Source of the DNA: Octopus vulgaris
Taxonomy: Eukaryota
Direction: 5' to 3'
Assembly (NCBI GenBank): GCA_951406725.2
Contig: OX597818.1
Location: forward strand, 58,094,001 to 58,158,000
DNA: 64,000 nt
The notes below the pieces were generated by a model. The model searched no databases, was not told the DNA's origin, and saw only the letters and a list, made by a program, of their open reading frames with translations. The translations under genes were made by a program, and so were the position numbers. Below, piece by piece: positions 608 through 63,020 of this stretch (positions within the stretch are counted from its first letter, which is position 1; every line of letters begins with the position of its first letter).

Positions 608-986
608 TATTTCTTTACTGCCCACAAAGGGCTAAATATAGAGGGGACAAACAAGAACAGACAAAGGGATTAAGTCGATTACATCGACCCCAGTGCGAAA
701 CCGGTACTTTATTTATTGACCCCGAAAGGATGAAAGGCAAAATCGGCCTCGGTGGAATTTGAACTCAGAACGTAACAACAGCCGAAATGCATATTTAAAC
801 ACAGAGAGGACAAACGTATTAAGTTGATTATATCGACCCCAGTGCGTAACTGGTACTTAATTTATCGACCCCGAAACGATAAAAGCAAAGTCGACCTCGG
901 TGGAATTTGAACTTTGAACGTAACGTCAGGAGAAATACGGCTACGCATTTCGCCCGCTGTGCTAACGTTTCTGCCAGCTCGCCGCC
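608..986 (-). mobile_element. SINE family A, dimer
   Basis: Reverse complement of the family A consensus (ggcgagctggcagaaacgttagc...gttcaaattcc...tcatcctttcggggtcgat...tagccc.ttgtgggcagtaaagaaata), two overlapping units. Confidence 0.85.
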
Positions 987-2024
987 TGATATAGCAGCTG
1001 ATATAGCAGTGATTATATGAGACACGAAAACCAAAAGATAATGATATCAACATCCACAGAAATAACGATTTCGGCATCATTAATATGATAACTGCTACCT
1101 AGTATAGAATGTCTTATTGTGATTAATTATTTACTGCATACTATTATGAAAGCGAAATATGTTATTTAGTTCACGGAGATATTACAAGTAAGTATGATCT
1201 TCAACTTTCGCACAGCCTACCAATATGAACTATATGATTAGATGTAATAATGATAATATACATTTCTTAAATGAATAACTGAAGCAGATGGTTTTCTAAC
1301 TGACATTTCTTTTGTTAAAATTTAACTAGTTTTAGTCACCTTAAAATTAATTATTAACAAACCTTACCTACTTGCACAATAAGTCTTCTGCACATTAAAT
1401 ATTGTACCTCAAGTTTTGTAAAGAATAAATATTTCAAGCACACTTTTCGAGAGGAAGCAAAATAATTATATAATTATAAAGGTTTCATTTTTCTAAATAT
1501 CTCTACATAAAGTCATATACTATATCACATGTTTCAACGCGGCGATATAAGTAAAAGATTCAACATCTAATTAAAACTGAATACAACATCTTCCTTTCGG
1601 TTAAGCATATTATTAAAATTTTCCAAATCAAATAAGTTTAAATGTAACCTATACCAATAAAAGTATGCTGATATTTATGCCAGAATCACGATTAAGTTAA
1701 GTAGAATGAATATAGTAGGATTGTAATGATGTACCGATTCATCTTCTAGAGAGGTTATGAGTTTACTGTTAAGTTGTTACTTGAAAATCCATACACAATA
1801 GATTCACATTCAAACTAATACATGCGATTAAATAGAAAAGTACTCAAGAACCAATACACAGATATATTTAAATTACAATATAGAAAATTCGATCTTACTT
1901 GGTTGATACCCTTTCAGACATATGAAAAGCAATATCTTAAAAAGTGTTAAATGATACGGTGTATTGCGAACATTTGTTAAAAATATAATATACAGATTAG
2001 ATATTAATATTTACTTTCTTTAAA

Positions 2025-2835
2025 GCGTCGTTCTGGCAGAATCATTAGCGCGCCGGGCGAAATGCTTAGCAGTATTTCGTCTGCCGTTACGTTCTGAGTT
2101 CAAATTCCGCCGAGGTCGAATTTGCCTTTCATCCTTTCGGGGTCGATTAAATAAGTACCAATTACGCACTGGTGCTGATATAATCGACTTAATCCGTTTG
2201 TCTATCCTTATTTGTCCCCTCTGTGTGCAGCCCCTTTTGGGCAGTAAAGAAATAGGTATTTCGTCTGCCGCTACGTTCTTAATTCAAATTCCACCGAGGT
2301 CGGCTTTGCCTTTCATTCTTTTCGGGGTCGATTAAATAAGTACCAGTTACGCACTGGGGTCGATGTAATCGACTATCACTTTGTCTGTCCTTGTTTGTCT
2401 CTTCTATCTTTAGCCCCTTGTGGGCAATAAAAAAATAAGAATAGTTAGCATGCCGGTTAAAACGTTCTCAGATCAAAATCTGCCGTGGTCGACTTTGCCT
2501 TTCATCACTTCGTGGCTGATAAACTATATAAGAGTTGAGCAATTGAATGAATGCCATCGACTTACGCCCAACCTAGACTTCACTGTCTGCTAAAATTGGA
2601 AATCAGTATCTAATTTCTTTACAGCATCGAGCTGGCAGAATCGTTAACAAGTCAAGCAAAATATTTTGCGGCAGTTCGTCCGCCTTTACGTTCTGAGTTC
2701 AAATTCCGCCGATGTCATGTTTGCTTTTCATACTTCCAAGGTATATAATGATAGTGCCAAATGAAAACTGGGCTTGATGTAACTCATCTACCTACCGTGC
2801 CGAAATTTCTTGCCTTGTGGCAAAATTTGAAACGA
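2025..2835 (+). mobile_element. SINE family A tandem array (about 4 units)
   Basis: Repeated A-box-like tggcagaatc, B-box gagttcaaattcc and central tcatcctttcggggtcgat. Unit junctions at ~2251-2262 and ~2431-2456. Later units are decayed. Confidence 0.85.
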
Positions 2836-14265: not shown

Positions 14266-14289
14266 ACAAATATATATGGAAATTATAAG

Positions 14290-17423: not shown

Positions 17424-18188
17424 CGGGACGAGCGTGTCTGCATACGCGGACGACGTCACCGTCATAGTGTCTAGCCACGAGCACATCGAGCTGGTCGGCG
17501 AGACACTGAAAAACTACGAAACGGTGACAGGAGCGAAAATCAACCGGGAAAAGTCAGTGGGCTTGCGACTAGGCACCTGGAGAAGCAAGCCCATGCCGTC
17601 CACCAGCGCCTCCGTCGTGGGACGCTGGACCGACGGCCCGGTTGAGTTGCTCGGGGTCTGGTTTGGTCCGGACCTCCAAGTGGAGAAGAACTGGAACGAG
17701 ATAACGAGTAGGGTGGTCACTCTCGCCCGGCAATGGGCCGAGAGGAAACTGTCCCTAAAAGGTCGAGCGGAGGTGGCGAACACGTACATCGCGTCCGTCA
17801 TCTACTACCGCCTGACCGTCGTACCTTGTCCCGACCCTACCATCACCAAACTACAACGCATCCTCTTTCGCTTCTTGTGGAAAGGATGCGTCCCGATGGT
17901 CAGGCGATCCATTTGCTGTCAACACCCGTTAAAAGGAGGGCTGGGCATGCCGTGGTTGATGATGCGCAGACACGCGCTGAGACTGCGGCATCTCTGGCTC
18001 TATGTAGACGACGGTGAACAGGTGTGGTCGCCGTTTGTGAGGCACGCTTTCCCGCAGCTCGTCTCCATGACCGAACTGCAGTCGTGGATCAAAAAGAGGC
18101 CGAGGAAGGGCGAATGGCACCGCGAGTGTCGCGTTGCTCTCAAGCAACTCTGCCGTCCTGGGTCGACCTTAAGTGACTTCAACACAAC
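17424..18188 (+). mobile_element. Internal Tx1-family ORF2 fragment (RT C-terminal part) flanked by a 10-bp direct repeat
   Basis: Open frame VSAYADDVTVIVS...LKQLCRPGS is homologous to ~28914-29980 (without the 303-bp duplication). cattgtcgat at 17414-17423 and 18189-18198. Confidence 0.92.
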
Positions 18189-18239: not shown

Positions 18240-19038
18240 GGCAGCGAGCTGGCAGAAACGTTAGCACGCCGGGCTAAATGCTTAGCGGTATTTCGTCTGC
18301 TGCTACGTTCTGAGTTCAATTTCCCCGAGGTCGACATTGCCTTTCATCCTTTCGGAGTCGATAAATTAAGTACCAGTTGTGCACTGGAGTCGATATAATC
18401 GACTTAATCCGTTTGCCTGTCATTGTTTGTCCCCTCTGTGTTTAGCCCCTTGTGGGTAATAAAAAAATAGGTATTTCGTCTGCCGCTACGTTCTGAGTTC
18501 AAATTCCACTGAGGTCGACTTAGCTTTTCATCCTTTCGGAGTCGATAAATTAAGTACCAGTTACTCACTGGGGTCGATATTATCGACTTTATCCATTTGT
18601 CTGTCTTTGTTTGTCCCCTCTATGTTTAGCCCCTTGTGGACAATAAAGAAATAAGAAATGTTAGCACGCCGAGCGAAATGCTTAGCGGTATTTCCTCTGT
18701 CTTTACGTTCTCAGTTCAGATTGCGCCGAGATCAAGTTTGCCTTTCAGGGTCGATGAATTAAGTACCAGTACGCAACTGGGTTCGATCTAATCGATTGAA
18801 CCCTCCACCAAAATTTCAGGCCTTATACCTGGAGTAGACAAGGATATACAAAATATTAAAGCCGTCGAGGTGGCAGAATCGTTAGCACTCCGGGCGAAAT
18901 GCTTAGCGATATTTCATCTGTCTTTACGTTCTGAGGTCGATTTTGCTTTTTATCCTTTCGAAGACGATAAATTAAGTACCTGTCGCACACTAGGTCGACC
19001 TAAATTTCGGGCCGTGTGCCTAGAGTAGAAAAGATTAT
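18240..19038 (+). mobile_element. SINE family A tandem array (4 units)
   Basis: Junctions at ~18461-18480 and ~18641-18670. Units 3-4 carry the alternative tail (aatttc.ggcc.t.t.cct.gagtaga). Confidence 0.9.
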
Positions 19039-20203
19039 TTTGAAACCCTTCTGAATGAATCACTACAGATGAGCGAAACTGTGAACAGTAAAAGCAATAT
19101 CATCAAGTTTCAAAGAATTCCATTTTCATAAAATTCATAAACGGAATTATTTATATATCAGTTTGTTTCGAAACGTTTGAACAAATTCAGGAAATATTGT
19201 TCCCCTGTCTGAGTAAACATACTAATTTCTATTTGATTAACATTTACAAAGTTTCGTTGATATTAAAAACATATTTCGCTTTCGCATTGTAGTCGATATA
19301 ACTGACAATATCGAATTAAAATTAATATATGTCACTTACGATGTTTCACTGTTATGCTTCCAATTCCAATATACTGTGAACCGAGAATTCGATATTATAT
19401 TCTAGTTAAATTTGTAACAAAACTTACAATAAATATAAGAATTAAAAACTCTTGCATTGTTGAATAATTTTATATATCAAAGTTAGCAATAATAACATTT
19501 AGAATCAGCAAGTCATCAATTTATGCATTTGACATTTAATTTATGGCGAAATCGCAGTAATATTTAAACATTTTGCAGAATGAAATATCTAACGCTCAAA
19601 TTCTACATTGTCAACACTTGTATAGATAAGATATCTCAAACTAATCCCATAGTGTTTCCATATGTATCTTTGATTGTAATCAAATATTTATTAATAAACC
19701 ATGTAAATGTTAATCCTAAAAATGTTTTTTGAATAAATTTATACAGGAAACAAAAATCCTGCTTTTAAATAAAAATAAGCAAAGCACCTGAAATGCATAA
19801 AATAATTTTGTGCGAAATTCATAGGGAATAAATTTACAATGAACGAATTTTCCTGTTATATTAGCACCGAGACGAGTGTAATTAGAATGTGTTACATCGC
19901 ACTGTTTTGAACGATCTCATTTACTCCAAATAATTTCATGAAGTGCTGGGGATGCATACATCATAATATGTACTAGAAAGTCAACAGTAGTCCTTAAGTT
20001 GCATCAGCTTGTAATCACTATAAACAATTAAGCCAGATTAGAAGCAGGATAAAAGTAATAGCAAAAAAAAATTCTGAGGATTATCCACTTTATAATAATT
20101 ACGTAATCTCTGGAAGATGTTTGAAGATAAATCACCATCCGGTAATACACCACTTAGTAACTCAATCTCTAATAGTGGTAGTGATGTAGTTACAACAGAA
20201 TTT

Positions 20204-20434
20204 GGCGGCGAGCTGGCAGAAACGTTAGCACGCCGGACGAAATACGTAACCGTATTTTGTCTGCCGTTACGTTCTGAGTTCAAATTCCGCCGAGGTCGAC
20301 TTTGCCGTTCATCCTTTCGGGGTCGATTAAATAAGTACCATTTACGCACTGGGGTCAATATAATCGACTTAATCTGTTTGTCTGTCCTTGTTTGTCCTCT
20401 CTGTGTTTAGCCCCTTGTGGGCAGTAAAGAAATA
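20204..20434 (+). mobile_element. SINE family A monomer with 16-bp TSD
   Basis: TSD agttacaacagaattt at 20188-20203 and 20435-20450. Confidence 0.93.
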
Positions 20435-23550: not shown

Positions 23551-23834
23551 GTGGTAAGTAGCTTGCTTACCAACCACATGGTTCCAGGTACAGTCCCACT
23601 GCTGGTACCTTGGGAAAAGTGTCTCCTACTATAGCCTCGGGCTCACCAAAGGTGGATTTGGTAGATGGAAACTGAAAGGAGCCCGTCGTATATACGTGTG
23701 TATATGTGTAGGTGTGTATGTGTTTGTGCGTCTCTGTTTGTCCCCCCCCCCCAACATCGTTTGACAAGTGATGCTGGTGTGTTTACGTCCCCGTAACATA
23801 ACAGTTCGACTAAAGTAACCGATACAATAAGCAC
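23551..23834 (+). mobile_element. SINE family C lacking its own tail, fused to a Tx1 3' end
   Basis: Follows family C to ...ccgata.aataagcac, then switches to Tx1 sequence. Confidence 0.85.
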
Positions 23835-24233
23835 CACTTGAAAAGATAGATGAGAATGGAGAGGCAGGTTTTGTCTAGAGAAAGTTTCAAAAATAGGTGG
23901 GTGAATGTAGCAAAGATGGTGCGTGCGAGTGACGAAACCACTTTGAGCATGATCCTATAAGTCGTAAAAGAGAGAGGAAACTTTGATCTCATGTGTTTAT
24001 TTCCTCTCTGCCTGAGGTTACCGTGGTCTTTTCTGTAGGCTTTTCTTCCACAGATGAACCTAATCTTGTTCGTTATTTTTTTAAAAAATCCCCTATTGAT
24101 CCCTTTTGATCACTTTTTCCGATCCCTTTTGATCGAAATTTTACATTTGTTTCCTTTTCTCTTTTTTCTTTTTCCATCTTCGAAAACAACATCTCTACAT
24201 TTGTATTTAGCCCTGTTTGGCCAATAAAGAAAG
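23829..24233 (+). mobile_element. Tx1-family 3' fragment (copy 1 of tandem cluster)
   Basis: Aligns to 30489-30924 (caccacttgaaaag...gagcatgatcct...gccctgtttggccaataaagaaag). Confidence 0.9.
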
Positions 24234-24276
24234 TTACCTACCTACATACCATCTACCTATCTATCAATCTGTTTAT

Positions 24277-24369
<93 letters not shown>

Positions 24370-24414
24370 AATCTGTTTATCTATCTATCAATCTGTTTAT
24401 CTATCAATCTGTTG

Positions 24415-24473
<59 letters not shown>
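24234..24473. repeat. Compound (TATC)n microsatellite
   Basis: (ctat)n with recurrent caatctgttt variants. Confidence 0.95.
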
Positions 24474-24695
24474 ATCTCTGACGGATGTGATGTCGTTTCA
24501 GCTCCGAAGGTAATCATTTATTTTGACTATTTAAAAGTGTATATTGACAAACATTTTGTGCTTAAAAGTTGTGTAACAACATCCACTGTAAACCTTTGAT
24601 AAATATCGACACAAAATTTTGCCCCTTGTGGGCAAAATTTAAAAGAAAAAATTCTCATAGCCTTCGTGGTTTCATTTAGCCATTTTATTTCCAAA

Positions 24696-26839
24696 ATGGC
24701 CACTGGCCACCACGAGGCTGAGTTGCAAGTCAAGCGTGACGCACAAACAGAAAAACAGGATGCTCTGTTAGCATACGCCGAACCTGACAACTCCACCACC
24801 ATCAACAGCAACAAATACAAAACAAAGGTCGCAAGGCCAAGCACCGTCAACACCATCAGTGAGTCCACCACCACCACCAACACCATGGCAGAATCTGCTA
24901 CTAAAACTGCTATCCCTACTAAAGATATCGCCACCAACAACAACACCAACATCACCATCACCGCCACCAAAGACCGTGCCGTCAATGCTACTAATACTAC
25001 CAACACCACCGCCGTCAACAAGAACGACAATAACAACAACAACAACAACAACAACAACGACGACAACAACAATTCCCTTCAACCACTGCTCACTCCATCA
25101 CCAACAAGTGAAAAAATAACGACGACAAGCAAACGAAATGTCGAAATTTGCCCTAGTGCAGGACTAAAGTACGCAGGCAATTTTCCACCCCTTCCTACTT
25201 GCACGATCGAACCAAACACACCAATTTTACAAACTGCAGCCAACAACAATAACAAAACAACAACAAATTTCGCTGAGGCGATTAAAGAAAAAAAAACAAC
25301 AATATACTTCACGGCTCAACAAATACAGGACACGAACATCAAAATAACAGAATCAGAAGGTATAGTAAAAATAAACATACCAGAAGATATTTTGGAAAAT
25401 GAAAAAAGACGAACAATCATTTATAAAATAGTTAACAAAAAAACAAAAATCCCAGAGAAGGCCAACACAAGCAAAATAGAGAAGTGCTTGAAACCCATCT
25501 GGGATCACAAAGAATATGTAACCTGGTGGAACAAATTTGCCCACATACAAGTTGTTTTCTACACCGAAGAGTTAGCTAGACATTTCTCAACGCTAACTCT
25601 TCACTCAGATGAACTCCAACTTACACCAAGCTATCGGGGACAGAAAGTGACTAAGATCACTCTAAACAATGTCCCCAAAATAGCCAATAGTCTATGGCTT
25701 GTAAAGGCCTTATGCGTAAAAATGGCGAATTATACTATTTTGGAAACCACAGTCACAGAGCATAAAAACTGGGTGGGAAAAAAAATAGATTTTCTTCTAC
25801 ATATACATCATGAAGATATAAAAAAAATACCCACCCAGATATGTGTATCAGACGACCACAAGTTATATGTGGTCGTCGATGGCAGAAGACCACGTTGCTA
25901 CATATGCGGCAGTGAGCAACACCTCAAAAAAGACTGCAAATCTGCCGCAAGAAAACAACAGCAACAACAACAGCAGCCGGAAACAAAAACAAATAAACAA
26001 GGTTTACTACCCACACCACTTTTTGCAGGAACAAACCTCACCAAACAAACAACCACACCAACTGCAGCACCAAGAACAGAAGCAGCATCACCAACAACAA
26101 CAACCAAGAATATACCAACTCCCAAACCAAGGACATCTGCCAAAAAGACACCCAGCAAAAATGAAGAAACAATTACAACTCCAAATCCCCACAAAATTGA
26201 GACCCTAAACAACACAACAATACCCACAATCACTCAAACACAAAATACCCAAACCCCACATCCAAAACCGCATACACCACAACCAAACGCTCACCAACCA
26301 ACACCAACAACAAAACCAACACAGTCGACAATAGACCCCAATACTTTCCCTCTTCCAGACTCCGATTCGTCGGATCTGTCATTAGACGAAGAAGACACGG
26401 AAGATTGGCAAATAGCCACAGGGGGGAGAAGAAAAAGGGGAAAAAAAGAAAAGAAAAAATAACAAACAAAGCGGGAAGATACACCACTCCCGAAACAAAA
26501 ACATCCACAGAAAACACACACATCAGCACAAACACACCATCATCAAACCCCCCAAAAATGTTGACAGCCATTAACACAAACAACCACGACCTAATGGAAC
26601 ACATTAGGTCAAACACTAACATTACTGAAAACGACACAAAAACAAGTAACCACCCACACACAACACCACCACAACACATTAAAATAATACACGTGACACA
26701 GAACACATACAGCACCCTGAAATCTCTTTACCCTGATGCAGTAGGGAGATTTCAAAAGTACTCATCGAAAAAACTGTATAAAAGCCTCATAGAAGAAGAC
26801 CGTGAGGTGAAAGACAAAGAACTTTCGAAAAACAAGTAA
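24696..26839 (+). CDS. Tx1 ORF1, gag-like protein with CCHC zinc knuckle (probable -1 frameshift near 26420-26460)
   Basis: ATG at 24696. CYICGSEQHLKKDC = CX2CX4HX4C, with T/N/P-rich linkers and an acidic then basic stretch. The ORF stops at 26462, but ORF 26405-26839 continues it if one base is added in a G/A homopolymer. Confidence 0.8.
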
Positions 26840-26880
26840 CCTTTTCTCTCTCCTTTTCCTTTTTGCACTTTTATCGGAAC

Positions 26881-29800
26881 ATGCTCAGAATAGGTAGTAT
26901 AAATGTACGTGGCTTGGGGTCGCCTTGGAAACAAGGCTACCTGTTAAATGACATCAAGTCACTAAATCTGAATATCATAGCCATCAGTGAGACCAGACTC
27001 CACAGCTTGCGGGCACTCCAGCACATTTTCGGTACACATTTCAACATTTATTTTTCTCCGTGTCTACCGAGAATGGGCGGAGGTGGCACCGCGGTGCTTA
27101 TCCGGAAGAGTCTGGATCTCAAAGTAAGAGCAAATTTCCTAGACCCGGAGGGTAGGCTGGTCGTCTTGGATGTCGATGGCAGCAATGAGTGTGCTTTTCG
27201 ACTGATAGCAGTTTATGCTCCGTCCTTAACAGGCCGACCAGATTTCTTTCGACGTCTAGAGTCTTTCATGGGAACGTCTCGTCCTTTACTTTTAGTGGGG
27301 GATTGGAATGCCACCCTGGACACGCATCTAGACTACGTGGGCAGAGATAGCAATAGAAGGGGATGCAAATGCCTCAAAGACCTGCTCAGACGTTTCCAAC
27401 TGTCTGACAGGTACCGACTGGACCACCCGAATGTGCCAATGTGGACATGGAGTAACCGCATCGGGTCGTCCAGATCATACTTAGATAGAGTATTCTGTAG
27501 GACAATAGATAAAAATAGTGTAGGTTGTCCACAATTTCATATAGTCAGTTACACAGATCACAAGTTTGTGACTTGTACACTTGACTTAGATAAGACACAT
27601 AGGCAGGGTCCTGGTTACTGGAAACTGAACGCGTCTTTTACAGCACGACAGGTTTACAGGGACCGGATCAGCACATTAGTTAAGAGAGCTTTGACGGGTA
27701 CCATCATCAACAACAGATGGTGGTATGCCCTAAAAAAGCGATTAAAGCAGAATCAGTCAGATACAGTAGAGCCCTAGCATTAGACCGAAATAGAATAGAG
27801 GGAGATTTAGTTAAGGTTTTAGAAGAGGCACTTAGAACTGGCATCGCGTCCAACGTACTGGCGGCGAGATTGGCCCTCGACCAACACCTCAACGCCAAAC
27901 ACGAGGGATGCGTTGTCAGAGCTAGGATGCGTGCTCTGAGGAACGAAGGAGTTGGAGCCGCCCAAGAGGCCCGAGTGGTGGAGACGCAACGAGGCAACAG
28001 AGCCACCATCAAGTCTCTTATAGATGAACAGGGGCGCGAATTGCTCGAGCCTAAAAGGATGTGTGGGGTTTTTCAACAACACTTCACCCAACTGTTTGGG
28101 ACAAGTGGTGAGTCAGAAAGCAGAGTGGACTTTAGTGCCTACCTGCATGCCTTGCCACGACTCTCAGCAAGGGAGGTGGAGTCTTGTGAAAAGCCTATCA
28201 CAGCTGCGGACGTACAGGATGCGATGGTAGGCTGCGCGAGAGACAAGTCACCAGGCTTGGATGGTCTGCCCTACGAATTTTATTTTCATATGCCAGACTT
28301 GTTTGGAGGCGTCTTGGCAGCTGTCTACTGCAACTGGCAGCAGAACGGGAGTATTCCTGCTTTTGTAAAGCGAGGAGCAGTGGCACTGATCAAGAAAGAC
28401 CCAAACAAGGGGGACGTCATAGATAATTTCAGGCCCATCACTCTGCTCAACGCAGATTTGAAAATTTTGGCCAAGGTGTTAGCCGAGAGGTTGGCGCTTG
28501 TCATCAAGAAACTAATCGACAAGGCGCAAACATGCGCCGTGCCGGGTAGAAGTATTCATGACAACCTCCATCTGATGCGCTATATCATAGACAGGGTAGT
28601 TAAAAATCCTGGCATGGGTGGGGCGCTGATCAATTTGGATCAATCAAAAGCCTTCGATAGGGTAGACCATCACTACTTGGAGGCTGTCCTCAAAGCGGCT
28701 GGTTTCGGTCCAGTTTTCCGCGGTTGGATCGCTGCCTTATACAGCGGCATCCGCTCAGTAGTTCGCGTAAATGGTCATCTATCCAGACCTTTTAACATCA
28801 TGCGTTCGGTTCATCAGGGATGCCCCCTCTCATCGCTGCTGTATGTACTGACTCTTGAGCCACTACTGCGGAAACTGGCGACGCTGAGGGGCATCCCACG
28901 AGAGCTGGGATGCGGGAGGAGCGTGTCTGCATACGCGGATGACGTCACCGTCATAGTGTCGAGCTACGAGCACATCGAGCTGGTCGGCGAGACACTGAAA
29001 GAATACGAAGCGGTAACGGGAGCAAAAATTAACCGGGAAAAGTCAGTGGGCTTGCGGCTCGGCACCTGGAGAAGCAAGCCCATGCCGTCCAACAGCGTCT
29101 CCATCGTGGGACGCTGGACGGACGGACCGGTTAAATTGCTCGGGGTCTGGTTCGGTCCGGACCTCCAAATGGAGAAGAACTGGGGCGAGATAACGACTAG
29201 GGTGGCTACTCTCACCCAGAAATGGACTGAGAGAAAGCTATCCCTAAAAGGTCGGGCGGAGGTGGCGAACGCGTACATCGCATCCGTCATCGAGTATCGT
29301 CTGACCGTCGTGCCTTGTCCCGACCCTACCATCACCAAACTGGAACGCATACTCTTCCGCTTCTTGTGGAAGGGAAACGTTCCGATGGTTAGGCGATCCA
29401 TTTGCTGCCAACACCCGCTAAATGGAGGGCTGGTTGAGTTGCTCGGGGTCTGGTTCGGTCCGGACCTCCAAATGGAGAAGAACTGGGGCGAGATAACGAC
29501 TAGGGTGGCTACTCTCACCCAGAAATGGACTGAGAGAAAGCTATCCCTAAAAGGTCGGGCGGAGGTGGCGAACGCGTACATCGCATCCGTCATCGAGTAT
29601 CGTCTGACCGTCGTGCCTTGTCCCGACCCTACCATCACCAAACTGGAACGCATACTCTTCCGCTTCTTGTGGAAGGGAAACGTTCCGATGGTTAGGCGAT
29701 CCATTTGCTGCCAACACCCGCTAAATGGAGGGCTGGGCATGCCGTGGTTGATGATGCGCAGACATGCGCTGAGACTGCGACATCTCCGGCGCTTCATAGA

Positions 29801-30620
29801 CAACGGTGAACAGGGGTGGTCGCCTTTTGTGCGGCGCGCTTTCCCGCAGCTCGTCTCCTTGGACGAACTACAGTCATGGATCAAGCAGAGACCGAGGCTA
29901 GGCGAATGGCACCGCGAGTGTCGCGTTGCTCTCAAGCAACTCTGCCGTCCGGGATCGAACTTGTGCGACTCCATCACAACAAAGGCATTCTATAGAGGAT
30001 TAGTGGAGGGGAGGTGCGACGACGAACTCGGGCAGAGTCTGGGCGTCGACGAAGAACACCTGACCCGCCTGTTCAGGACAACTTTCGGGCCGGGACCTAT
30101 GAACAATCATCAAAGATCCCTGGCCTGGCAGTGCTATCGAGAAGCATTACCTGTTCGGGATAAGCTCTACAGACACGGTTCCAGACACACTGGACCGACT
30201 TGCCCGAGATGCGGTCAGAGCGACGAAACCGTTCTGCACGCACTCGTGCAATGTCCAACCATTTCCGACCTGTGGGCTTATGCCGAACGGCTGCTGTCAC
30301 GTGTGGGACGAATCCGCCTATCGGCCGAGTCTATCGTCAGAATTGCTCCGCCCCCTTCCCTCAACCGGGAAGGCAAGGCAGTTTTCATCGTACTGGTGGC
30401 CATGGTGAAAGAATGTGTGTGGTGGACTCGAGCGAAAGGATTAGAGACAAACACTTACCTCTCTGGCCAATCGCTCATCAACTTTTTCAAGTACCACTTG
30501 AAAAGGAAGGTGAGAATGGAGAGGGAAGTTTTGTCTCGCGAAAGATTCAAAAAAAGATGGGTGAATGTTGCAAAGATGGTGCGTGCTAGTAACGAAACCA
30601 TTTTGAGCATGATCCTGTAG
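26881..30620 (+). CDS. Tx1 ORF2: APE endonuclease + reverse transcriptase + C-terminal zinc finger (one frameshift, one in-frame duplication)
   Basis: APE motifs SINVRGL, ISET, VYAP, GDWN, LDR, TDH. GPGYWKLN. RT motifs SPGLDGLP, RPITLLN, DQSKAFDRV, QGCPLS, YADD. CPRC...ETVLHALVQC. Frameshift in the A-run at 27732-27737. Confidence 0.92.
29129..29736 (+). repeat. 303-bp (101-codon) tandem duplication inside Tx1 ORF2
   Basis: 29129-29433 repeats at 29432-29736, identical by eye except the first bases (ggttaaattg vs ggttgagttg). Confidence 0.95.
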
Positions 30621-30924
30621 ATCGTAAAAAAGAAAGAAAGAGAGCATTTTTGACCTCATGTGTTTATTTCCTCCCTGACTGGGGTTCCCGTGGTCTTTTC
30701 TGTAGGCTTTTCTTCCCACGGATGAACCCAATCTTGTTATATCAATGTTTACACCATTATTTCTGTGATACACGATTTTCTTTTTTTTCCTTTTTTTTTC
30801 CTCCTCTCGATCCCTTTTGATCGCAATCATACATTTTTTTATTTTTTTCCACCCTCGAAAAGAAAAGCTCTGCATTTGTATTTGTCCCCTCTGTATTCAG
30901 CCCTGTGTGGCTAATAAAAGAAAG

Positions 30925-30952
30925 TTATCTATCTATCAATCTGTTTATCTAT

Positions 30953-30989
<37 letters not shown>

Positions 30990-30996
30990 AATCTGT

Positions 30997-31052
<56 letters not shown>

Positions 31053-31100
31053 ATATCTATCTATCTATCTATCTGTTTATCTATATATCTATGAATCTGT

Positions 31101-31150
<50 letters not shown>

Positions 31151-31176
31151 GTTTATCTATATATCTATGAATCTGT

Positions 31177-31220
<44 letters not shown>
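30925..31220. repeat. Compound (TATC)n microsatellite
   Basis: (ctat)n with caatctgttt / gaatctgttt variants. Confidence 0.95.
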
Positions 31221-32224
31221 TAGTGGAGGGGAGGTGCGACGACGAACTCGGGCAGAGTCTGGGCGTCGACGAAGAACACCTGACCCGCCTGTTCAGGACA
31301 ACTTTCGGGCCGGGACCTATGAACAATCATCAAAGATCCCTGGCCTGGCAGTGCTATCGAGAAGCATTACCTGTTCGGGATAAGCATTACCTGTTCGGCC
31401 TGTTCAGGACGACTTTCGGGCCAGGGCCCATGGACAACTTCCAGAGATCCCTGGCCTGGCAGTGCTACCGAGAAGCGCTACCCGTTCGGGATAAGCTCTA
31501 CAGACACGGCTCGAGAAACACGGGGCCGACCTGCCCGAGATGCGGTCAGAGCGACGAAACCGTTCTGCACGCACTCGTTCAGTGTCCAACAATTTCCGAC
31601 CTGTGGGCTTATGTCGAACAACTGCTGTCACGTGTGGGACGAGTCGGTTTATCAGCTGAGTCTATCGTCAATATTGTCACGCCTCCTTCCTTCAAACGGG
31701 AAGGAAGAGCTATTTTCATCATCCTTGTGGCTATGGCGAAAGAATGTATCTGGTGGACGCGTCTGAAAGGATTGGAGACAAACACTTTCCTCTCTGGTCA
31801 ATCTCTCATCAACTTCTTCAAGTACCACTTGAAAAGGAAAGTGAGAGTAGAGAGGCAAGTTTTGTCTAGCGAATGTTTTAAAAAAAGATGGGTGAATGTA
31901 GCAAGAATGGCACGTATGAATGACGAAGCCACCTTGAGCATAGTCCTATGAACCCAGAAATCGAAAACAGAGAGTTGCTTATTTGCAAAAAAAAAAAAAA
32001 GAAATATAAAATGTGACTTCATTGACCGAGGTTACCGTGGTCTTTTCCGTAGGCTTTTCTTTCCACGGGTAAACCTCACCTGTCCTCCCCTTTACACTTC
32101 ATATTGACATTTCTGTGATAACGATCCCTATTGATCAATTTTTTTTCCTCTCCCCCTTTTTTTAACCCCCTTTTTTTGTCCTCTTTCTCTCCTTTTACGA
32201 TCCCTTTTGATCGAAACTCCCCTT

Positions 32225-32258
<34 letters not shown>

Positions 32259-32328
32259 CTTCAAAAGAAAAGCTCTACCTTGTAATTTGTTCTATCTGTG
32301 TGCAGCCCTGTGTGGCTAATAAAGAAAC
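31221..32328 (+). mobile_element. Tx1-family 5'-truncated, chimeric copy (copy 3 of tandem cluster)
   Basis: 31221-31385 is identical to 30001-30165. It then restarts with a diverged subfamily encoding CPRC...H...C to the stop at 31951. 3'UTR ends cagccctgtgtggctaataaagaaac. Confidence 0.92.
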
Positions 32329-32380
32329 ATATCTATCTATCTATCTATCTATCTGTTTATCTATATATCTATCAATCTGT

Positions 32381-32445
<65 letters not shown>

Positions 32446-32452
32446 AATCTGT

Positions 32453-32486
<34 letters not shown>

Positions 32487-32568
32487 GTTTATCTATATAT
32501 CTATCAATCTGTTTATCTATCTATCTATCTATCTATCTATCTGTTTATCTATATATCTATCAATCTGT

Positions 32569-32610
<42 letters not shown>

Positions 32611-32645
32611 GTTTATCTATCTATCTATATATCTGTTTATCTATA

Positions 32646-32694
<49 letters not shown>

Positions 32695-32720
32695 GTTTAT
32701 CTATATATCTATCAATCTGT

Positions 32721-32789
<69 letters not shown>

Positions 32790-32840
32790 AATATGTTTAT
32801 CTATCTATTATCTATCAATATGTTTATCTTTCTATCTATC
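32329..32840. repeat. Compound (TATC)n microsatellite
   Basis: (ctat)n with caatctgttt and ctatatatct variants. Confidence 0.95.
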
Positions 32841-33642
32841 TCTTTAGTTATTTACATGTTCATTTTGCGTGGAGTGGCAGGATAGATGTCCAACGGTTCT
32901 CACTTTATTAAAGAAAAGTTACTAAGTACAATTATAGCAGTTTTGGAGCCATTAATGATGATGTGCCTATAATTGCTCATAATTATACAGACAGAATCTT
33001 CTCTCGAACTGCCAAGATATTGAAAACCAATCCTTACATTTAAATTCTATATAGTTATAGTTAGACATGAGATAGCTTTATACGATATATTTCTCAACAT
33101 TTGATGTAACCTTTCCATTTTCTTTTTAGACGTTTGGCATCCATTGAAATAAATACCATAAATGTATTATGCCGACTGCTGGAGAGTATTGTTCGCCTTT
33201 TAGGCAATAAAATGCTGTTAGTTGAATTCTTTTATGTGCAGGGTTCCAATATCTCATAACTTAATTTTACTTTGCAAAATTAATGTGAACAGAACCAGTC
33301 AATTAAAGAATAATTATTGAAGGTTAATGAATATGCAACTCGAAGCAATCGATTATCTTCATCCCGTATACTAAGAGTCCAGTCGCTGAGTTCAATAATA
33401 GAATAAAATAATTAAATGAACAGATTGAAAAATTCAGTACGGGTTGCAAAGAATCTGACAAGTTTAATGTTATTTTGAGAAAGTAATATTTAGTTGTGCA
33501 AACCAAATAAAATATAATCATTGTACATTAGCCGAGTACAGACATTATTTGACTTAGATGGTTTGCATAAATCACAGAACGACTAAGAGTCTCGATGCTT
33601 CAGCTTCCTCTCTCTCTGTCTCTCTGTCTCTCTCTCTGTCTC

Positions 33643-36872: not shown

Positions 36873-36960
<88 letters not shown>

Positions 36961-40716: not shown

Positions 40717-40941
40717 TATTTCTTTACTGCCCACAAGGGGCTAAACATAGATGGGACAAACAAGGACAGACAAAGGGATTAAGTTGATTACATCAACCCC
40801 AGTGCGTAACTGGTACTTAATTTATCGACCCCGAAAGGATGAAAGGCAAAGTCGACCTCGGCGGAATTTGAACTCAGAACGTTATGACAGACGAAATACC
40901 GCTAAGCATTTCGCCCAGCGCGCTAACGCTTCTGCCAGCTC
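40717..40941 (-). mobile_element. SINE family A monomer with 16-bp TSD
   Basis: TSD gcagatggaaaatata at 40701-40716 and 40942-40957. Confidence 0.93.
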
Positions 40942-42519
40942 GCAGATGGAAAATATAGAGTTACTGTAAGTACAGGCAAAAAAATATATATACAGGTTTG
41001 TAACTACAGCCACATTGAGAACATCTGTCTATTGAAATACTATACAATTGCACAAGTAAAACAAATATCGAACTAATTATACTTCTTTTTGTTTAACTCA
41101 ACAAAGGATGATCCTAAAATGTGCGCATGGTTTCAGTGTAAGTTGCTGTATAGGTGTTCCTGTAAACTTTAATTTTTTCTCCAACTCAGAGAGAAATAGT
41201 AAACTGAATTTCAATTGAACTCTGGGGACAGTAGATCATAAATAATTACTGTAAGGCATTTAATCTCAAGTTTTAACGATTCCGCCAATCAACGGCTTTT
41301 CCGTTCTGTTTCAGATAATAACAACAGCATTAAATAACTCTCTGTGTAATGATTTACGTGCGCTTAGGTAAATGCGATTCTGTGCAATACGGTAATTAAA
41401 AGGCTACACAATGTTTCCAGCACTAATGTCTTTCTAATGTGGCAGTTAACAAAATCTTCACTATAATCACTAACACAATGCATTGCTAGAGTGTTTTCCC
41501 CTCTCAATAAAGCTGTTTAGAATATAAACTTAATAGGCTACCCATGTCGTCTTAACTGACAAAAGATTTCTCAATTATATTAAACGGCGCATGGTAGACC
41601 CATTCAAACAATTGCTAAAACAACTGATAATTAAATAACTTTCTAATAGCATTGAACGTACTCTCCCTTCTTTAATCTATTAAAGCTTGACTGAAAACAA
41701 ACAGACATCTTTAATTATAATACACAAATAAATCTTTTGATATAACATTTTAATCTAATTATTAACAACCCTTACGACAATTTTAGTGGTGTTGTTTTGG
41801 TAAGCTGTGGTGAAATGGGATGATCAAATTTACAATTTAGTTAAATAGCCTTCAGAAAACGGATTACGTTTGCGAAACATAAGACCGTAATAACGTTTGA
41901 CAGTGTCACATTATAGGTAAATACATTAATAAACTTTTGGTGGGTGTGATTAATCGCTGAGAGAGAATATTGATCATGAAAGTAGAAAGGAGTGCCTCAC
42001 GACTTAAAGGAAAATAACACGAATGTCGTGTTTAAATGTCGTACGAATTTACAACAGGCCGTGCAATTCATTGCTCTACCGAGCACATAGACTACTTTCT
42101 GCGGAATTCGGTCTCTTGCAAATATTTCATTGGCGTCCCCGCTTTAACGATGAATTCCACTCTCAGTCTCTGAGACTTAAATTATAGGTTCCGGAGTACG
42201 AAATTTCTCTTACAGATTAATTATTGAAATCCATTTGGTGCCTGCAAAATTTGAAATATTGTCTTAGTGAATCTAGCAGAGAACTGATCAAATTGTGGCT
42301 AAGAAAAGTATGTTGAATAGTTCTAAACTTAGGTCCTAGATTATCCACATCTGGGTTGTACGTTTATCTAATTTCTTCCTACAGGTAAGATGATTTTTCG
42401 CTGCCAGCACATATCTTTGCCAGTATATATATGTATATATATATATACAGCGAAATTTTACTATAGCGTCGTATATTTACTGCTATTTCCAGTAAATATT
42501 GATGCATTACTGTACAACT

Positions 42520-46010: not shown

Positions 46011-46227
46011 GGCGAGCTGGCAGAAAGGTGGCGAGCTGGCAGAAACGTTAGCACGCCAGGCGAAATGCGTAGCCGTATTTCGTCTGCCGTTACGTTCTGA
46101 GTTCAAATTCCGCCGAGGTCGACTTTGCCTTTCATCCTTTCTGGGTCGATAAATTAAGTACCAGTTACGCACTGGGGTCGATGTAATCGACTTAATCCGT
46201 TTTTAGCCCCTTGTGGGTAATAAAGAA
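46011..46227 (+). mobile_element. SINE family A with duplicated head and 19-bp TSD
   Basis: ggcgagctggcagaaa occurs twice. TSD acagatatatccatgttgg at 45994-46012 and 46228-46246. Confidence 0.93.
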
Positions 46228-47818
46228 ACAGATATATCCATGTTGGTTTCCAAAAAGTACCACATAAATCAGTTGAGGTTCAAAGATATATTTTTGGTAT
46301 CGACGATTTTAAGCTCCGTTTTATATCCGCAGATCTAGTTTCCAAACTTTAAAGAGATATATGAGTTTTCTCAACACTGCTCAATGATTTTTCTCAACTC
46401 TGATCAGTTTTATTTAGCTCTGTGGAAATGGAATCCTCTATATGTGTTGCACATAATTAAATGACGCCCGACATACAAGTGAGAATATATCTATTTTCCA
46501 TGCAGGCTATTATATCTAATAGGGAACCAGTTGCGATATTCATATCTAGAAATGAAGTGTGTAGAACACCATGAATACCAGCAATGGTTCTTGAGAATCG
46601 TTGTCTCCAGATACATAATGTTAGTGGAATAAAAATTCAAATATATCACACTATTTTATCTTTATTCAAACTGTGGCAATATATATAACGTGTTTATCAT
46701 AAAGATCAAAGAAATAACTTCTAAAATCTATCATTGTCTCTATTACACTGACACCATATGAAGCGGGAATTATGGCTTGGATACTAGCCATGTGAGATTT
46801 GGCTTCTCGGGTTATCTAACGCTGTATTGACTAACAAATTATTTAAATTTTCTAGATCTGTAAGATATGATACATCATACATATTGATATGCATAAAACC
46901 GTCCATAATATTGATAATCAGTAGGCATATCTAATTCAGCACATATAATTCTTAATATATTAAAAATCTAGAAATCTACATTACCATTTATAGTGAATTT
47001 CATGTATCATATTGTATCATTTAAAATTCATATGAGTGATATAAATTTCACTGATGTGTATTCACTGAAAATCTACTGATATATCATATCATAAACAAGG
47101 AAACGTGAGCCGAATACATATACTTGTCTATTATATCAGTAAATACTATCGTTAAAGGAACTAAACAGGAAAAATACCGGCTTCAAAAATATAACCTAAA
47201 AGAACTAAATAGTTATGGAATTATGGCGAATATATATTTGAAGCATGAATCTATAAATTTCATGGATTTACAAACTTCCTTTATCACTAAATAAGCTATA
47301 AAACATTCCAGAATTTGTATTTTACGTATTTTGACAGATTTTTTTGATATTCAATCTTCAGAAATCCTATCAAGAATTGCCCATATACATTATAAACTGA
47401 TTCAGCAATGTTTATATTCGTTATATATTTTGAGTGGTGGTGGGGGGTTATATATCCACATGTTTACCGAAGAAGATATTGCTGCAAGCATAAACATTTT
47501 ATTAGTCAGTGAGGCAAAATATTTATTCTTAATTACGCTCCCAAATTGTGTAAGGAATTTATTTTGAGGTCTCTGCCTGATATTGCGTATATGAGTGAGT
47601 GGGGTTCACCCATTCGTGTAGCAAATGCGATATGAATTTCCGTTGAATACGTTGTCAGTATAAATTTGCGTTGCAGGCACAACTAGCCCTTTACGAGTAT
47701 ACAAAAAAAAATAGGCGACAGTAAAACATTAGTGACCTTTGTATAAACCTCGATATTGCAGTTTAGATGGTTAATATCTAATCTTTATACTGGCCATGTA
47801 TAACAGCAGACATGTCGG

Positions 47819-50320: not shown

Positions 50321-50572
50321 CGCCAGAATTTTATGGCCAACTTAGTAATATGCACTTGAAAATTAGTATCCTTATTGATGCCTATCACGCACAGATTTTG
50401 ATTCAAATATCGCAATTCATTCGGAAGAAGTGTTGTCTCTCTGTCTTTCATTCACCTTCCTGGGCTTTTGGACCAGGGATTGTAATTCTGCAGCATCAAA
50501 GTGCGTGTTATTCTCCTCACCCCACACGTATAAAAAATGCCCAGGGCTTATTGCTGGTGAGCAAGAGTTCTT

Positions 50573-50801
50573 ATTTCTTTATTGCCCAGAAGAGGCTACA
50601 CACAGAGGGGACAAAGAAGGACCGACAAACGGATTAAGTCGATTATATCGACCCCAGTGCGTAACTGATTCTTATTTAATTGACCCCGAAAGGATGAAAG
50701 GCAAAGTTGACCTCGGCGGAATTTGAACTCAGAACGTAGCGGCAGACGAAATACTGCCAAGCATTTCACCCGGCGTGCTAACGTTTCTGCCCGCTCGCCG
50801 C
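50573..50801 (-). mobile_element. SINE family A monomer with imperfect 19-bp TSD
   Basis: ctggtgagcaagagttctt (50554-50572) vs ctggtgggcaagggttctt (50802-50820). Confidence 0.9.
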
Positions 50802-51116
50802 CTGGTGGGCAAGGGTTCTTCCGCAAAAACAACTTGCCCGGAATTGTGCCTCAAACGAGATCAGGGTAGGTGCAATCCCGCGGTCATATTTATATACAGA
50901 GGGAGAGAGAGAGAGAGAGAGAAGTTGTCAGTATTTTCACTGAATGTAATCATATTCTTTACAAACATTCCCCGTGTAATGGTAGTATTATACGCTGAAA
51001 TTTAAGTTACGTCCCACTTGGTTTGTGCAAGTATTGCTTTTGATATTCAACTTATTTTGATTTTCACATGCGTGTTTGATTGAAGAGGTCTTACACACAT
51101 AAATATAGCACATGAA

Positions 51117-52540: not shown

Positions 52541-52589
52541 GTTCTGCAACAAAACGTTGTAGTTGCCAACACACACATATATGTTATAT

Positions 52590-52820
52590 ATTTCTTTATT
52601 GCCCACAAAGAGCTAAACACAGAGAGGACAAACAAGGACAGGCAAATGGATTAAGTCGATTATATCGACCCCAGGGCGTAACTGGTACTTAATTTATCGA
52701 CTCCGAAAGGATAAACGGCAAAGTCGACCTCGGTGGAATTTGAACTCAGGACATAATGACAGACGAAATACCGATAAGCATTTCGCTCGGAGTGCTAACG
52801 TATCTGCCAGCTCGCCGTCT
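52590..52820 (-). mobile_element. SINE family A monomer
   Basis: Reverse complement of the family A consensus including the Tx1-like tail. Confidence 0.88.
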
Positions 52821-54388: not shown

Positions 54389-54450
<62 letters not shown>

Positions 54451-55841: not shown

Positions 55842-55842
55842 A

Positions 55843-62386: not shown

Positions 62387-63020
62387 GGTGGCGAGCTAGC
62401 AGAAACGTTAGCACGCCGGGCGAAGTGCTTAGAGGGAATTTCGTCTGCCGCTACATTCTGAGTTCAAATTTCGCCGAGGTCGACTTTAACTTTCATCCTT
62501 TCGGGGTCGATTAAATAAGTACCAGTTACGCACTGGAGTCGATGTAATCGACTTAATCCGTTTGTCTGTCCTTGTTTGTCCTCTCTGTGTTTAGCTCCTT
62601 GTGAGTAGTAAAGAAATAGGTATTTCGTCTGTCGTTACGTTCTGATTTCAAATTGCGCCGAGGTCGACTTTGCCTCTCATCATTTCGGGGTCGATAAATT
62701 ACGTGCCAGTTACGTACTGGGGTCGATATAATCGACTTAATTCCTGTGTCTGTCCTTGTTTGTCACCACTATATTTAGCGCCTTGTGGGCAATAAGGAAA
62801 TAAGAAACGTTAGCACGCCGGGCGAAATGCTTAGCTTATTTCGTCTGCCATTACGTTCTAAGTTCAAATTCCGCCGAGGTCGACTTTGCCTTTCATCCCT
62901 TTGCCGTCGATAAATTAAGTACCAGTCACACACTGGTGTCGATGTAATCTACTTAATCTGCTTGTCTGCCCTTGTTTGTTCCCTCTGTGTTTAGCCCCTT
63001 GTGGGCAGTAAAGAAATAAG
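62387..63020 (+). mobile_element. SINE family A trimer
   Basis: Junctions at 62611-62630 and 62791-62820. Possible TSD aacaaaagtacaag (62374-62387) / aacaaaactacaag (63029-63042). Confidence 0.9.

What the first reader, a model, noticed from the sequence alone, without database searches (positions are those of the whole stretch)
30881..30924. SINE family A tail is homologous to the 3' terminus of the Tx1 element
Seen: LINE TTTGTCCCCTCTGTATTCAGCCCTGTGTGGCTAATAAA vs SINE (18426-18463) TTTGTCCCCTCTGTGTTTAGCCCCTTGTGGGTAATAAA gives 33/38 identity without gaps. Both typically end aaagaaa without a long poly(A), and both keep a small stem-loop (agcc-ctgtgt-ggct vs gccc-cttgt-gggy). SINE A copies have 16-19-bp TSDs. 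Established: shared 3' tails mark stringent LINE-SINE pairs, whereas mammalian L1 recognises poly(A). Inference: an L1/Tx1-clade element with stringent 3'-end recognition drives a very abundant SINE, which is an uncommon pairing.
Basis: partly seen in the sequence, partly recalled or inferred. Interest (0 to 1): 0.8.

Follow-up and report, generated by a model that had tools for sequence, protein, structure and literature searches.

The report
Octopod SINE borrows Tx1 retrotransposon tail
A very common short parasitic repeat in an octopus-like genome ends in the same roughly 40-base stretch as a Tx1-type retrotransposon, which suggests it hijacks that element's copying enzyme through a small RNA hairpin, a partnership we did not find described for this group in animals.

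Summary
Confirmed. The 33/38 match is real but the best of 12 SINE A tails (28-33, median 30). A profile built from SINE tails alone finds all three LINE 3' ends (E 7e-9, 2e-8, 3e-5), although one copy lacks the first half of the motif. The LINE is Tx1-like (closer to named Tx1 proteins than to human L1) and forms a three-copy array, each copy followed by (TATC)n; contigs from other runs show the same flank. SINE A is dispersed, with 11-20-bp duplications at 6 of 9 sites, so target choice differs. New here: the SINE's hairpin core occurs exactly, as an 11-bp stem, in the LINE's 5' UTR. Sister-lineage LINEs (43-44% identity) form head-to-tail arrays that end without poly(A) in a hairpin with the same CUNGU loop. 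An older SINE family with the same body has a tail that weakly matches them. Best reading (0.7): a stringent Tx1-SINE pair. Mobilisation and hairpin binding are inferred; folding support inside the window is weak. Stringent L1-group pairs are known in plants and an alga; our searches found no shared-tail Tx1 pair in animals.

The parts
30881..30924 (+). Shared 3' tail of the full-length LINE: pyrimidine-rich block, 4-bp hairpin (AGCC/GGCT, loop CTGTGT), AATAAAAGAAA end, no poly(A)
24478..30924 (+). Full-length Tx1-like LINE (copy 2): 5' UTR, ORF1 with a CCHC knuckle, ORF2 with endonuclease, RT and zinc finger, 3' UTR. ORF2 is broken by a frameshift near 27684-27777 and carries a 303-bp in-frame tandem duplication
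24614..24640 (+). Perfect 11-bp hairpin in the LINE 5' UTR; its 13-nt core (24621-24633) is identical to the SINE A tail hairpin GCCC-CTTGT-GGGC
24696..26462 (+). ORF1; C-X2-C-X4-H-X4-C knuckle seen in the translation, no Pfam hit at E<=0.001
26806..27777 (+). ORF2 endonuclease part (Exo_endo_phos, E 1.3e-14)
27684..30620 (+). ORF2 RT and zf-RVT part (E 3.7e-31 and 8.3e-8); duplication at 29129-29736
23829..24233 (+). LINE copy 1, 5'-truncated; tail lacks the first half of the shared motif
31222..32327 (+). LINE copy 3, 5'-truncated; tail 32286-32327 matches copy 2 at 33/38
24234..24477 (+). (TATC)n array after copy 1 and directly before copy 2
30926..31220 (+). (TATC)n array after copy 2 and directly before copy 3
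32330..32841 (+). (TATC)n array after copy 3
17424..18188 (+). Internal ORF2 fragment of the same LINE family (88-89% identical to copy 2), no 3' end
18240..18655 (+). SINE A two-unit element (tails 18426-18463 and 18610-18647)
20204..20432 (+). SINE A monomer with a perfect 16-bp target-site duplication; A-box-like and B-box-like motifs in the head (read by eye)
608..987 (-). SINE A two-unit element
2025..2439 (+). SINE A two-unit element
40717..40945 (-). SINE A monomer with duplication
46027..46228 (+). SINE A monomer with an internal deletion in the tail; 19-bp duplication
50570..50802 (-). SINE A monomer, 19-bp duplication with 2 mismatches
52589..52820 (-). SINE A monomer, 11-bp duplication
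62387..63020 (+). SINE A three-unit element
18654..19041 (+). Two units of the older SINE B family (same head and body, other tail; tails 18794-18848 and 18991-19041). Further B tails at 2789-2842, 4715-4768, 5156-5210(-), 14287-14339(-), 14514-14569(-), 48214-48263

Best explanation
SINE A is a Pol III (tRNA-type head) SINE whose last ~44 bases were captured from the 3' end of a Tx1-lineage LINE. That LINE family, or a sister subfamily, mobilises it in trans. Shown: shared tail; Tx1-like ORF2; no poly(A); 11-20-bp duplications; the tail is the best-kept part of the LINE 3' UTR; sister-lineage LINEs end in a hairpin with the same CUNGU loop. Inferred: ORF2p binds the small GC-rich hairpin just upstream of the AAUAAAGAAA end and primes reverse transcription at a nick, as zebrafish L2 proteins do with their stem-loops (stringent mode). 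Also inferred: the identical hairpin in the LINE 5' UTR is a second site for the same protein; and the LINE's (TATC)n preference is only weakly passed to the SINE, either because it partly depends on repeat RNA read through past the LINE end or because a less specific sister subfamily did the copying.
For: Tail homology beyond chance, within the 35-61 bp, 72-95% range accepted for bivalve pairs (PMC11481361). Between LINE copies 2 and 3 the UTR body is 58% identical, the tail 82% and the ORF2 end 84%. In contigs of two DNA runs, LINE relatives carry the tail behind LINE-type UTR sequence (loose ends before 30880-30882: 54, 69, 17 and 63, 71, 15 contigs); in one RNA-guess run 6 contigs join the SINE A body at 30881. 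RT scores 221-276 bits against four fish proteins (three named Transposon TX1, one Tetraodon pol-like) versus 162-164 against human L1 ORF2p. Array relatives group with the window family at SH-aLRT 100. All 51 array loci of 55 fetched end in GGC-CTNGT-GCC, a second hairpin and AATAAA, followed by 0-1 extra A in 64 of 64 ends; the second hairpin shows T-A/C-G/G-C exchanges at one pair among 11 variants. A profile of 8 SINE B tails alone ranks these ends first in 885 kb (E 0.016, 0.035, 0.74). The SINE hairpin core is exact in the LINE 5' UTR (expected 3e-5 in the LINE sense strand; z -3.5). ATAT lies in the first 9 bases of 4 of 6 SINE duplications (background 7-10%, P about 0.001, post hoc), like the LINE flank consensus that starts TATAT. 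The window's other LINE (CR1-like) matches the tail at only 17/38.
Against: SINE A is in none of the (TATC)n arrays, whereas 3 of 3 LINE ends in the window and the consensus of 142 and 173 contigs are followed by such repeats. The SINE hairpin differs from the LINE 3' hairpin at 4 of 13 positions. Tail folding is no better than shuffles (z -1.5, -0.5, -0.7). RNAalifold on 14 tails prefers another, longer-range helix with no double-sided change. A covariance model built from the array relatives alone recovers none of the 12 SINE A or 3 LINE tails among 26 hits to E 10, and the SINE A profile hits 0 of 64 array ends, so that link rests on a motif noticed by eye. All array loci come from one assembly. 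Only one full-length LINE, itself broken, was seen; no genome was available.
Confidence: 0.7

Rival explanations
1. Reverse capture: the LINE lineage picked up SINE-tail sequence (at its 3' end and in its 5' UTR), and SINE A is mobilised by another LINE such as RTE, Dong-R4 or CR1.
For: The 5' UTR motif equals the SINE A core (13/13) and its flanks resemble SINE B tails (E 0.016), as a SINE relic would. Target sites differ. RTE, Dong-R4 and CR1 are active in O. vulgaris (PMC13282606).
Against: Sister-lineage LINEs from another host end in a hairpin with the same loop motif. The tail sits at the very end of 3 of 3 LINE copies and is selectively conserved. Only 2 of 6 SINE duplications start with T, unlike the RTE signature (PMC6007223 abstract).
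Confidence: 0.1
2. The tail is LINE-derived, but it serves 3'-end formation or RNA stability rather than ORF2p recognition; recognition is relaxed and relies on the A-rich end.
For: The tail ends in AATAAA in the LINEs. Folding support is weak. Mammalian L1, the best-studied relative, is relaxed (PMC3472496).
Against: No poly(A) follows any LINE or SINE end. AATAAA is intact in only 5 of 12 SINE tails (6 read AGTAAA, 1 AATAAG), while the hairpin can pair in 10 of 12.
Confidence: 0.12
3. The tail is a module shared by several LINE clades, and the true partner is an unseen non-Tx1 LINE carrying it.
For: No genome could be searched. In bivalves one SINE superfamily uses several LINE partners, and the authors warn of assigning sibling lineages (PMC11481361).
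Against: Among the listed loose-end rows at 30880-30882 only LINE-family UTR and SINE body or SINE-like sequence appear (621 rows not shown). The CR1-like LINE of the window does not match.
Confidence: 0.07
4. Chance or convergence of two pyrimidine-rich, AATAAA-ending sequences.
For: Both are short and compositionally biased; a 26/38 hit to the LINE tail occurs at an unrelated place, 26408-26445.
Against: Shuffle nulls max out at 24/38; profile E-values reach 7e-9; both sequences are terminal.
Confidence: 0.01

Closest known systems
Stringent L1-clade pairs: maize LINE1-1_ZM with ZmSINE2/ZmSINE3, and Chlamydomonas L1-1_CR with SINEX-3_CR (PMC3472496 part 1 of 3 read; PMC3747384 passages and Table 1 excerpts)
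   Same: L1-group LINE, tRNA-type SINE, about 45-50-nt shared 3' sequence, tail conserved against a diverged UTR, small hairpin with conserved loop.
   Different: Here an animal and a Tx1-type element; no poly(A) or poly(T) end; loop CUNGU rather than UCU; the hairpin core recurs in the LINE 5' UTR.
Crocodilian SINEU and Tx1-Mar (PMC4494074, passages)
   Same: A SINE thought to be mobilised by Tx1; a 16-bp duplication is expected for SINEU-3.
   Different: SINEU has snRNA heads and poly(A), shares the LINE's target, and SINEU-1 has no LINE-like 3' sequence. Here the link is a shared tail, and the target is not clearly shared.
Microsatellite-targeting Tx1 families Kibi (TC)n, Koshi (TTC)n and crocodilian (TTCC)n/(TTTC)n families (PMC4494074, passages)
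   Same: Tx1-type ORF2, copies associated with one microsatellite, same orientation.
   Different: Repeat is (TATC)n. The window family does not group inside the named fish Tx1 branch; deeper relations are unresolved. It is not settled whether the repeat is target or tail.
Zebrafish ZfL2-1/ZfL2-2 stem-loop recognition (PMC4176376, abstract)
   Same: Model for the mechanism: ORF2p binds a 3' stem-loop, the loop giving specificity.
   Different: L2 clade, shown experimentally; here inferred only.
Mollusc SINE superfamilies with exchangeable tails (MetaSINEs PMC4824008; bivalve HCD SINEs PMC11481361; passages and one section)
   Same: One head and body with several tails; tail homology of 35-61 bp at 72-95%.
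   Different: Partners named there are CR1, CR1-Zenon, L2 and Nimb; the word Tx1 does not occur in the main text of PMC11481361. Which superfamily SINE A belongs to could not be tested.

Membership tests
Stringent LINE-SINE pair | Shared 3'-terminal sequence between SINE and LINE | tested here: met
Stringent LINE-SINE pair | LINE 3' tail conserved more than the rest of the UTR | tested here: met
   58% body versus 82% tail between copies 2 and 3 (one pair only)
Stringent LINE-SINE pair | Conserved stem-loop with compensatory changes | tested here: inconclusive
   57 of 60 cells pair and 3 of 4 pairs change on both sides across 15 rows, but structure and rows were chosen by eye; one double change among 12 SINE copies; RNAalifold prefers another helix; z-scores not significant
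Stringent LINE-SINE pair | Same insertion signature and target as the LINE | tested here: inconclusive
   SINE A is not in (TATC)n arrays; weak ATAT bias at 4 of 6 sites
Stringent LINE-SINE pair | Overlapping periods of activity | tested here: inconclusive
   SINE A copies 82-89% pairwise (21 pairs); LINE-family contigs span 99+% to under 90% identity; no genome-wide landscape
Stringent LINE-SINE pair | ORF2p binds the tail and needs it for retrotransposition | not testable with these tools
   needs binding and mobilisation assays
Tx1 clade of non-LTR retrotransposons | Two ORFs; apurinic-like endonuclease, RT and C-terminal zinc finger in ORF2 | tested here: met
Tx1 clade of non-LTR retrotransposons | RT closer to Tx1 than to L1 proper or other clades | tested here: met
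   221-276 bits to named Tx1 and Tetraodon pol-like proteins, 144-167 to five unnamed metagenome RTs with a DFxKA motif, 44 to the CR1-like RT; 162-164 to human L1, 56-74 to R2; DQxKAFDRVxH shared with named Tx1 (that this motif marks Tx1 is recalled)
Tx1 clade of non-LTR retrotransposons | Monophyly with reference Tx1 in an RT tree | tested here: inconclusive
   Quick tree of 51 rows, careful search unfinished, no L1-proper reference; the window family and array relatives form their own branch (100), deep forks open
Tx1 clade of non-LTR retrotransposons | Target preference (common, not universal) | tested here: inconclusive
   3 of 3 ends and contig consensus followed by (TATC)n; copies 2 and 3 also preceded by it, copy 1 not; tail versus target not separated
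tRNA-derived SINE | Internal A and B boxes in a tRNA-related head | tested here: inconclusive
   A-box-like and B-box-like motifs read by eye in 4 heads (box consensus recalled); ARAGORN finds no tRNA; no meaningful Rfam hit
tRNA-derived SINE | Short, non-coding, dispersed, flanked by duplications | tested here: met
   about 230 bp, 14 units at 9 sites, 4.6% of the window, duplications at 6 of 9
MetaSINE superfamily | 66-bp Meta domain after the tRNA head | not testable with these tools
   consensus is in figures; motif searches of the held supplements found nothing and one file was not searchable; resemblance is recalled only

The most novel reading that the evidence does not exclude
An invertebrate Tx1 sub-lineage recognises its RNA through a CUNGU-loop hairpin present at both ends of the transcript (bipartite recognition, as known for R2 and RTE, recalled), ends without poly(A), and builds head-to-tail arrays. 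It has repeatedly donated tails to one SINE body (older SINE B, younger SINE A), making it a main motor of the octopus SINE expansion and the unidentified partner of some widespread invertebrate SINE tails. It would be the first animal L1-group element with a defined structural RNA signal, a direct test of the idea that poly(A) recognition in mammalian L1 is derived.
Probability: 0.25. Interest if true: 0.8.

Novelty: new variant of a known kind. Interest (0 to 1): 0.6.

Why it matters
Ohshima's model says ancestral L1-group elements recognised a specific 3' structure and that mammals and most plants lost this. Its examples are plant and algal only. A tail-sharing Tx1-SINE pair in an animal would extend the model and give a 13-nt hairpin that can be mutated in a standard assay. 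SINEs make up 11.6% of the O. vulgaris genome (PMC13282606), and none of the papers we read names their partner LINEs; SINE A alone covers 4.6% of this window. The mismatch between an array-forming, microsatellite-associated LINE and a dispersed SINE offers a natural test of whether Tx1 target choice lies in the endonuclease or in the RNA end.

Tried and rejected
No whole genome was held. Pattern scans for the tail in genome and viral collections gave 0 matches; protein scans gave no relatives in metagenomes with the window's C-terminal part and none in viral contigs, so no other cephalopod loci were obtained. The 80 metagenome loci fetched are distant (23-43% best-segment identity); 0 of 42 loci examined (38 of these 80, plus 4) had the CUNGU hairpin before AATAAA, many being cut short by contig ends. 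A covariance model from 9 array ends failed to recover SINE A or window LINE tails. A hand-written descriptor hit only 3 SINE A tails and 1 LINE tail in the window (null 0.01-0.03), but it was written after seeing both sets and is not counted as a test. The first hairpin does not vary within the array relatives. Contig depth rises about 10-fold or more over the tail in one DNA run, but ORF2 bins reach similar depth and the tool says depth is no copy number, so it was not used. RNA status of runs X5 and X14 is a guess; no claim of expression is made. SINE A has no match in the assembly that holds the arrays. The careful tree did not finish. Atlas hits were unnamed RT clusters. Earlier-findings look-ups returned nothing. 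Literature searches listed no shared-tail Tx1-SINE pair in an animal; Repbase, Dfam, the Zenodo library of PMC13282606 and subscription papers (e.g. Ohshima and Okada 1994, not seen) could not be searched.

Full report
Setting. The window is 36% GC, rich in microsatellites and SINEs. The best named relative of the LINE's ORF2 is from Argonauta hians (69% identity), and the LINE's 3' part is held by runs of two coded organisms. I infer an octopod cephalopod. No whole genome was held.

Observation. The 38-mers at 30881 and 18426 match at 33 positions. That is the best of 12 complete SINE A tails: range 28-33, median 30, 31 against the majority sequence, 26 of 31 without the A-rich end. Shuffles of the UTR (5000) and of the tail (20000) never exceed 24. 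A profile made from SINE tails only finds the three LINE ends at E 6.6e-9, 1.9e-8 and 3.3e-5. The copy ending at 24233 has lost the first half of the motif. The window's CR1-like LINE reaches only 17/38. SINE A has 14 units at 9 sites, 2949 bp or 4.6% of the window. Duplications of 11-20 bp are convincing at 6 of the 9 sites, and copies are 82-89% alike (21 pairs among 7 first units).

The LINE. The element at 24478-30924 has ORF1 with a CCHC knuckle, and ORF2 with endonuclease, RT and zf-RVT domains. ORF2 is frameshifted and has a 303-bp duplication. Its RT scores 221-276 bits against three proteins named Transposon TX1 and a Tetraodon pol-like protein, 162-164 against human L1 and 56-74 against R2 (that query was the whole ORF, best stretch 96-583, while one search used residues 1-583). 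A quick tree does not resolve its place relative to named Tx1 and held no L1-proper reference, so I call it Tx1-like. Three copies lie head to tail, each followed by a (TATC)n array. These arrays share an AATCTGTT variant (4, 4 and 5 times) that is absent from the three other arrays compared. Copies 2 and 3 begin directly after an array; copy 1 does not. In two DNA runs, 142 and 173 contigs leave the reference at 30918 with a consensus of GAAA followed by TA and TATC repeats (agreement 0.55-0.58), so the association looks family-wide. Between copies 2 and 3 the tail is 82% identical, the UTR body 58% and the ORF2 end 84%.

Relatives. A scan of genome contigs gave 55 loci; 51 come from one assembly titled as a bacterial MAG and hold relatives at 43-44% identity. 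I take these contigs for binned host DNA (inference). They are head-to-tail arrays: 67 of 69 motif matches lie outside contig C1, mostly 6.4-6.9 kb apart. They group with the window family at SH-aLRT 100. All 51 loci end in a pyrimidine tract, a hairpin GGC-CTNGT-GCC, a second hairpin and AATAAA (13 distinct ends, 64 occurrences in overlapping loci), with no poly(A) and no TATC arrays. The second hairpin shows pair exchanges among 11 variants (T-A 6, C-G 3, G-C 2 at one pair), so structured 3' ends appear to be selected in this lineage. The loop of the first hairpin matches SINE A's CTTGT, and an alignment of 15 ends puts the TCCCC block and hairpin in register, with 57 of 60 cells paired and double changes at 3 of 4 pairs. 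This was noticed by eye. Unbiased tests did not recover it for SINE A: the array model found none of 15 tails, and the SINE A profile hit 0 of 64 array ends. None of 42 more distant loci examined had the motif.

Two further findings. First, an older SINE family (B; 71-78% identity to a SINE A monomer) shares head and body but has other tails. A profile of 8 B tails ranks the array ends first in 885 kb of loci: best E 0.016, 0.035 and 0.74, best other hit 1.8; 47 of 64 ends were hit to E 50, against 97 other hits. This is weak per hit but falls on the right place, and suggests repeated tail capture from this lineage. Second, the 13-nt SINE A hairpin core occurs exactly at 24621-24633 in the LINE's 5' UTR, inside a perfect 11-bp stem (expected 3e-5 in the LINE's sense strand; z -3.5). 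The SINE matches the LINE 3' end at 17 of 19 positions before the hairpin and 9 of 13 within it, and matches the 5' UTR at 13 of 13 within it. The simplest reading is one ancestral hairpin kept at both LINE ends, with the SINE preserving the older loop. A SINE relic in the 5' UTR is the alternative; only one full-length copy was seen.

Structure inside the window is not proven. The 4-bp hairpin can pair in 10 of 12 SINE tails, with one double change, and is in the minimum-energy fold of 3 of 3 LINE ends but 4 of 12 SINE tails. Fold energies are not below shuffles, and RNAalifold prefers a longer-range helix without double changes.

Mechanism. By analogy with zebrafish L2 (PMC4176376, abstract), ORF2p would bind the hairpin near the AAUAAAGAAA end and prime at a nick; SINE A RNA would be copied because it carries that end (inference, 0.7). 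The main difficulty is target choice: no SINE A copy lies in a TATC array. Four of six duplications hold ATAT in their first nine bases (background 7-10%; post hoc), a possible relaxed form of the LINE flank. Either a sister subfamily did the copying, or the LINE's repeat preference depends partly on RNA read through into the repeats. Only 2 of 6 duplications start with T, which does not favour the RTE signature (PMC6007223, abstract).

Known systems. Of 58 catalogued pairs only three have L1-clade tails, in maize, sorghum and Chlamydomonas (PMC3472496, part 1 of 3; PMC3747384, passages and table excerpts). SINEU is linked to Tx1-Mar by shared targets, and SINEU-1 has no LINE-like 3' end (PMC4494074, passages). 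Bivalve SINE partners are CR1, CR1-Zenon, L2 and Nimb (PMC11481361, passages and section 13). MetaSINE partners were unknown (PMC4824008, passages). PMC13282606 (parts 1-2 of 3 and one supplement row) lists 13 recently active L1-Tx1 families and a SINE and LINE expansion at distance 0.065, compatible with SINE A's divergence if the genome is of that kind, but names no pair in the parts read. Passages were also seen of PMC4758252, PMC5786205, PMC11203168, PMC3531059 and PMC8967140. Nine searches listed no shared-tail Tx1 pair in an animal. Repbase, Dfam, figures, two unsearchable supplement files and subscription papers may hold one.

Verdict. A real shared tail, most likely a stringent Tx1-SINE pair: a new variant of a known kind, interest 0.6.

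Noticed in passing
window 24614-24640: Perfect 11-bp hairpin in the LINE 5' UTR with the exact SINE A core; it is followed by an A-rich stretch like the element's 3' end, and a second short hairpin-like motif with a TTCGT loop lies near 24659-24671.
   Followed up: partly
L081-L127, L131, L133-L135 (one assembly, handle G001): Long head-to-tail arrays (up to about a dozen units of 6.4-6.9 kb per contig) of intact-looking Tx1-like elements without poly(A) or spacer, inside an assembly labelled as a bacterial MAG; probably host DNA. They suggest insertion at the element's own ends.
   Followed up: partly
window 18654-19041, 2789-2842, 4715-4768, 5156-5210, 14287-14569, 48214-48263: SINE B: older family with the same head and body as SINE A and two tail subtypes, one ending in ATT repeats; tails resemble the array relatives' 3' ends.
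   Followed up: partly
window 608-987, 2025-2439, 18240-18655, 62387-63020: All four multi-unit SINE A elements restart the second unit at about monomer position 49-51 (period about 184 bp), pointing to a composite master copy; third units start near position 15 at an AGAAA microhomology.
   Followed up: partly
window 24234-24477, 30926-31220, 32330-32841: The three LINE-associated TATC arrays share the variant AATCTGTT, absent from the arrays at 55732-55962, 63780-63933 and 42903-42931.
   Followed up: partly
window 29129-29736 and 31287-31496: A 303-bp, 99% identical in-frame tandem duplication in ORF2 (real or an assembly artefact), and a 111-bp duplication at the 5' end of copy 3.
   Followed up: no
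window 6760-9265: A CR1/L2-like LINE remnant (RT at 7749-9182) ending in short TAAC repeats; its tail does not match SINE A.
   Followed up: partly
window 21713-22157, 23551-23831, 36683-37215, 54142-54615, 59716-60134, 61065-61437: Another abundant SINE-like family or composite with a different head and tail (CORE-like by recalled motif); partner not examined.
   Followed up: no
window 17424-18188: Internal ORF2 fragment of the Tx1-like family, about 50 bp upstream of a SINE A two-unit element.
   Followed up: no
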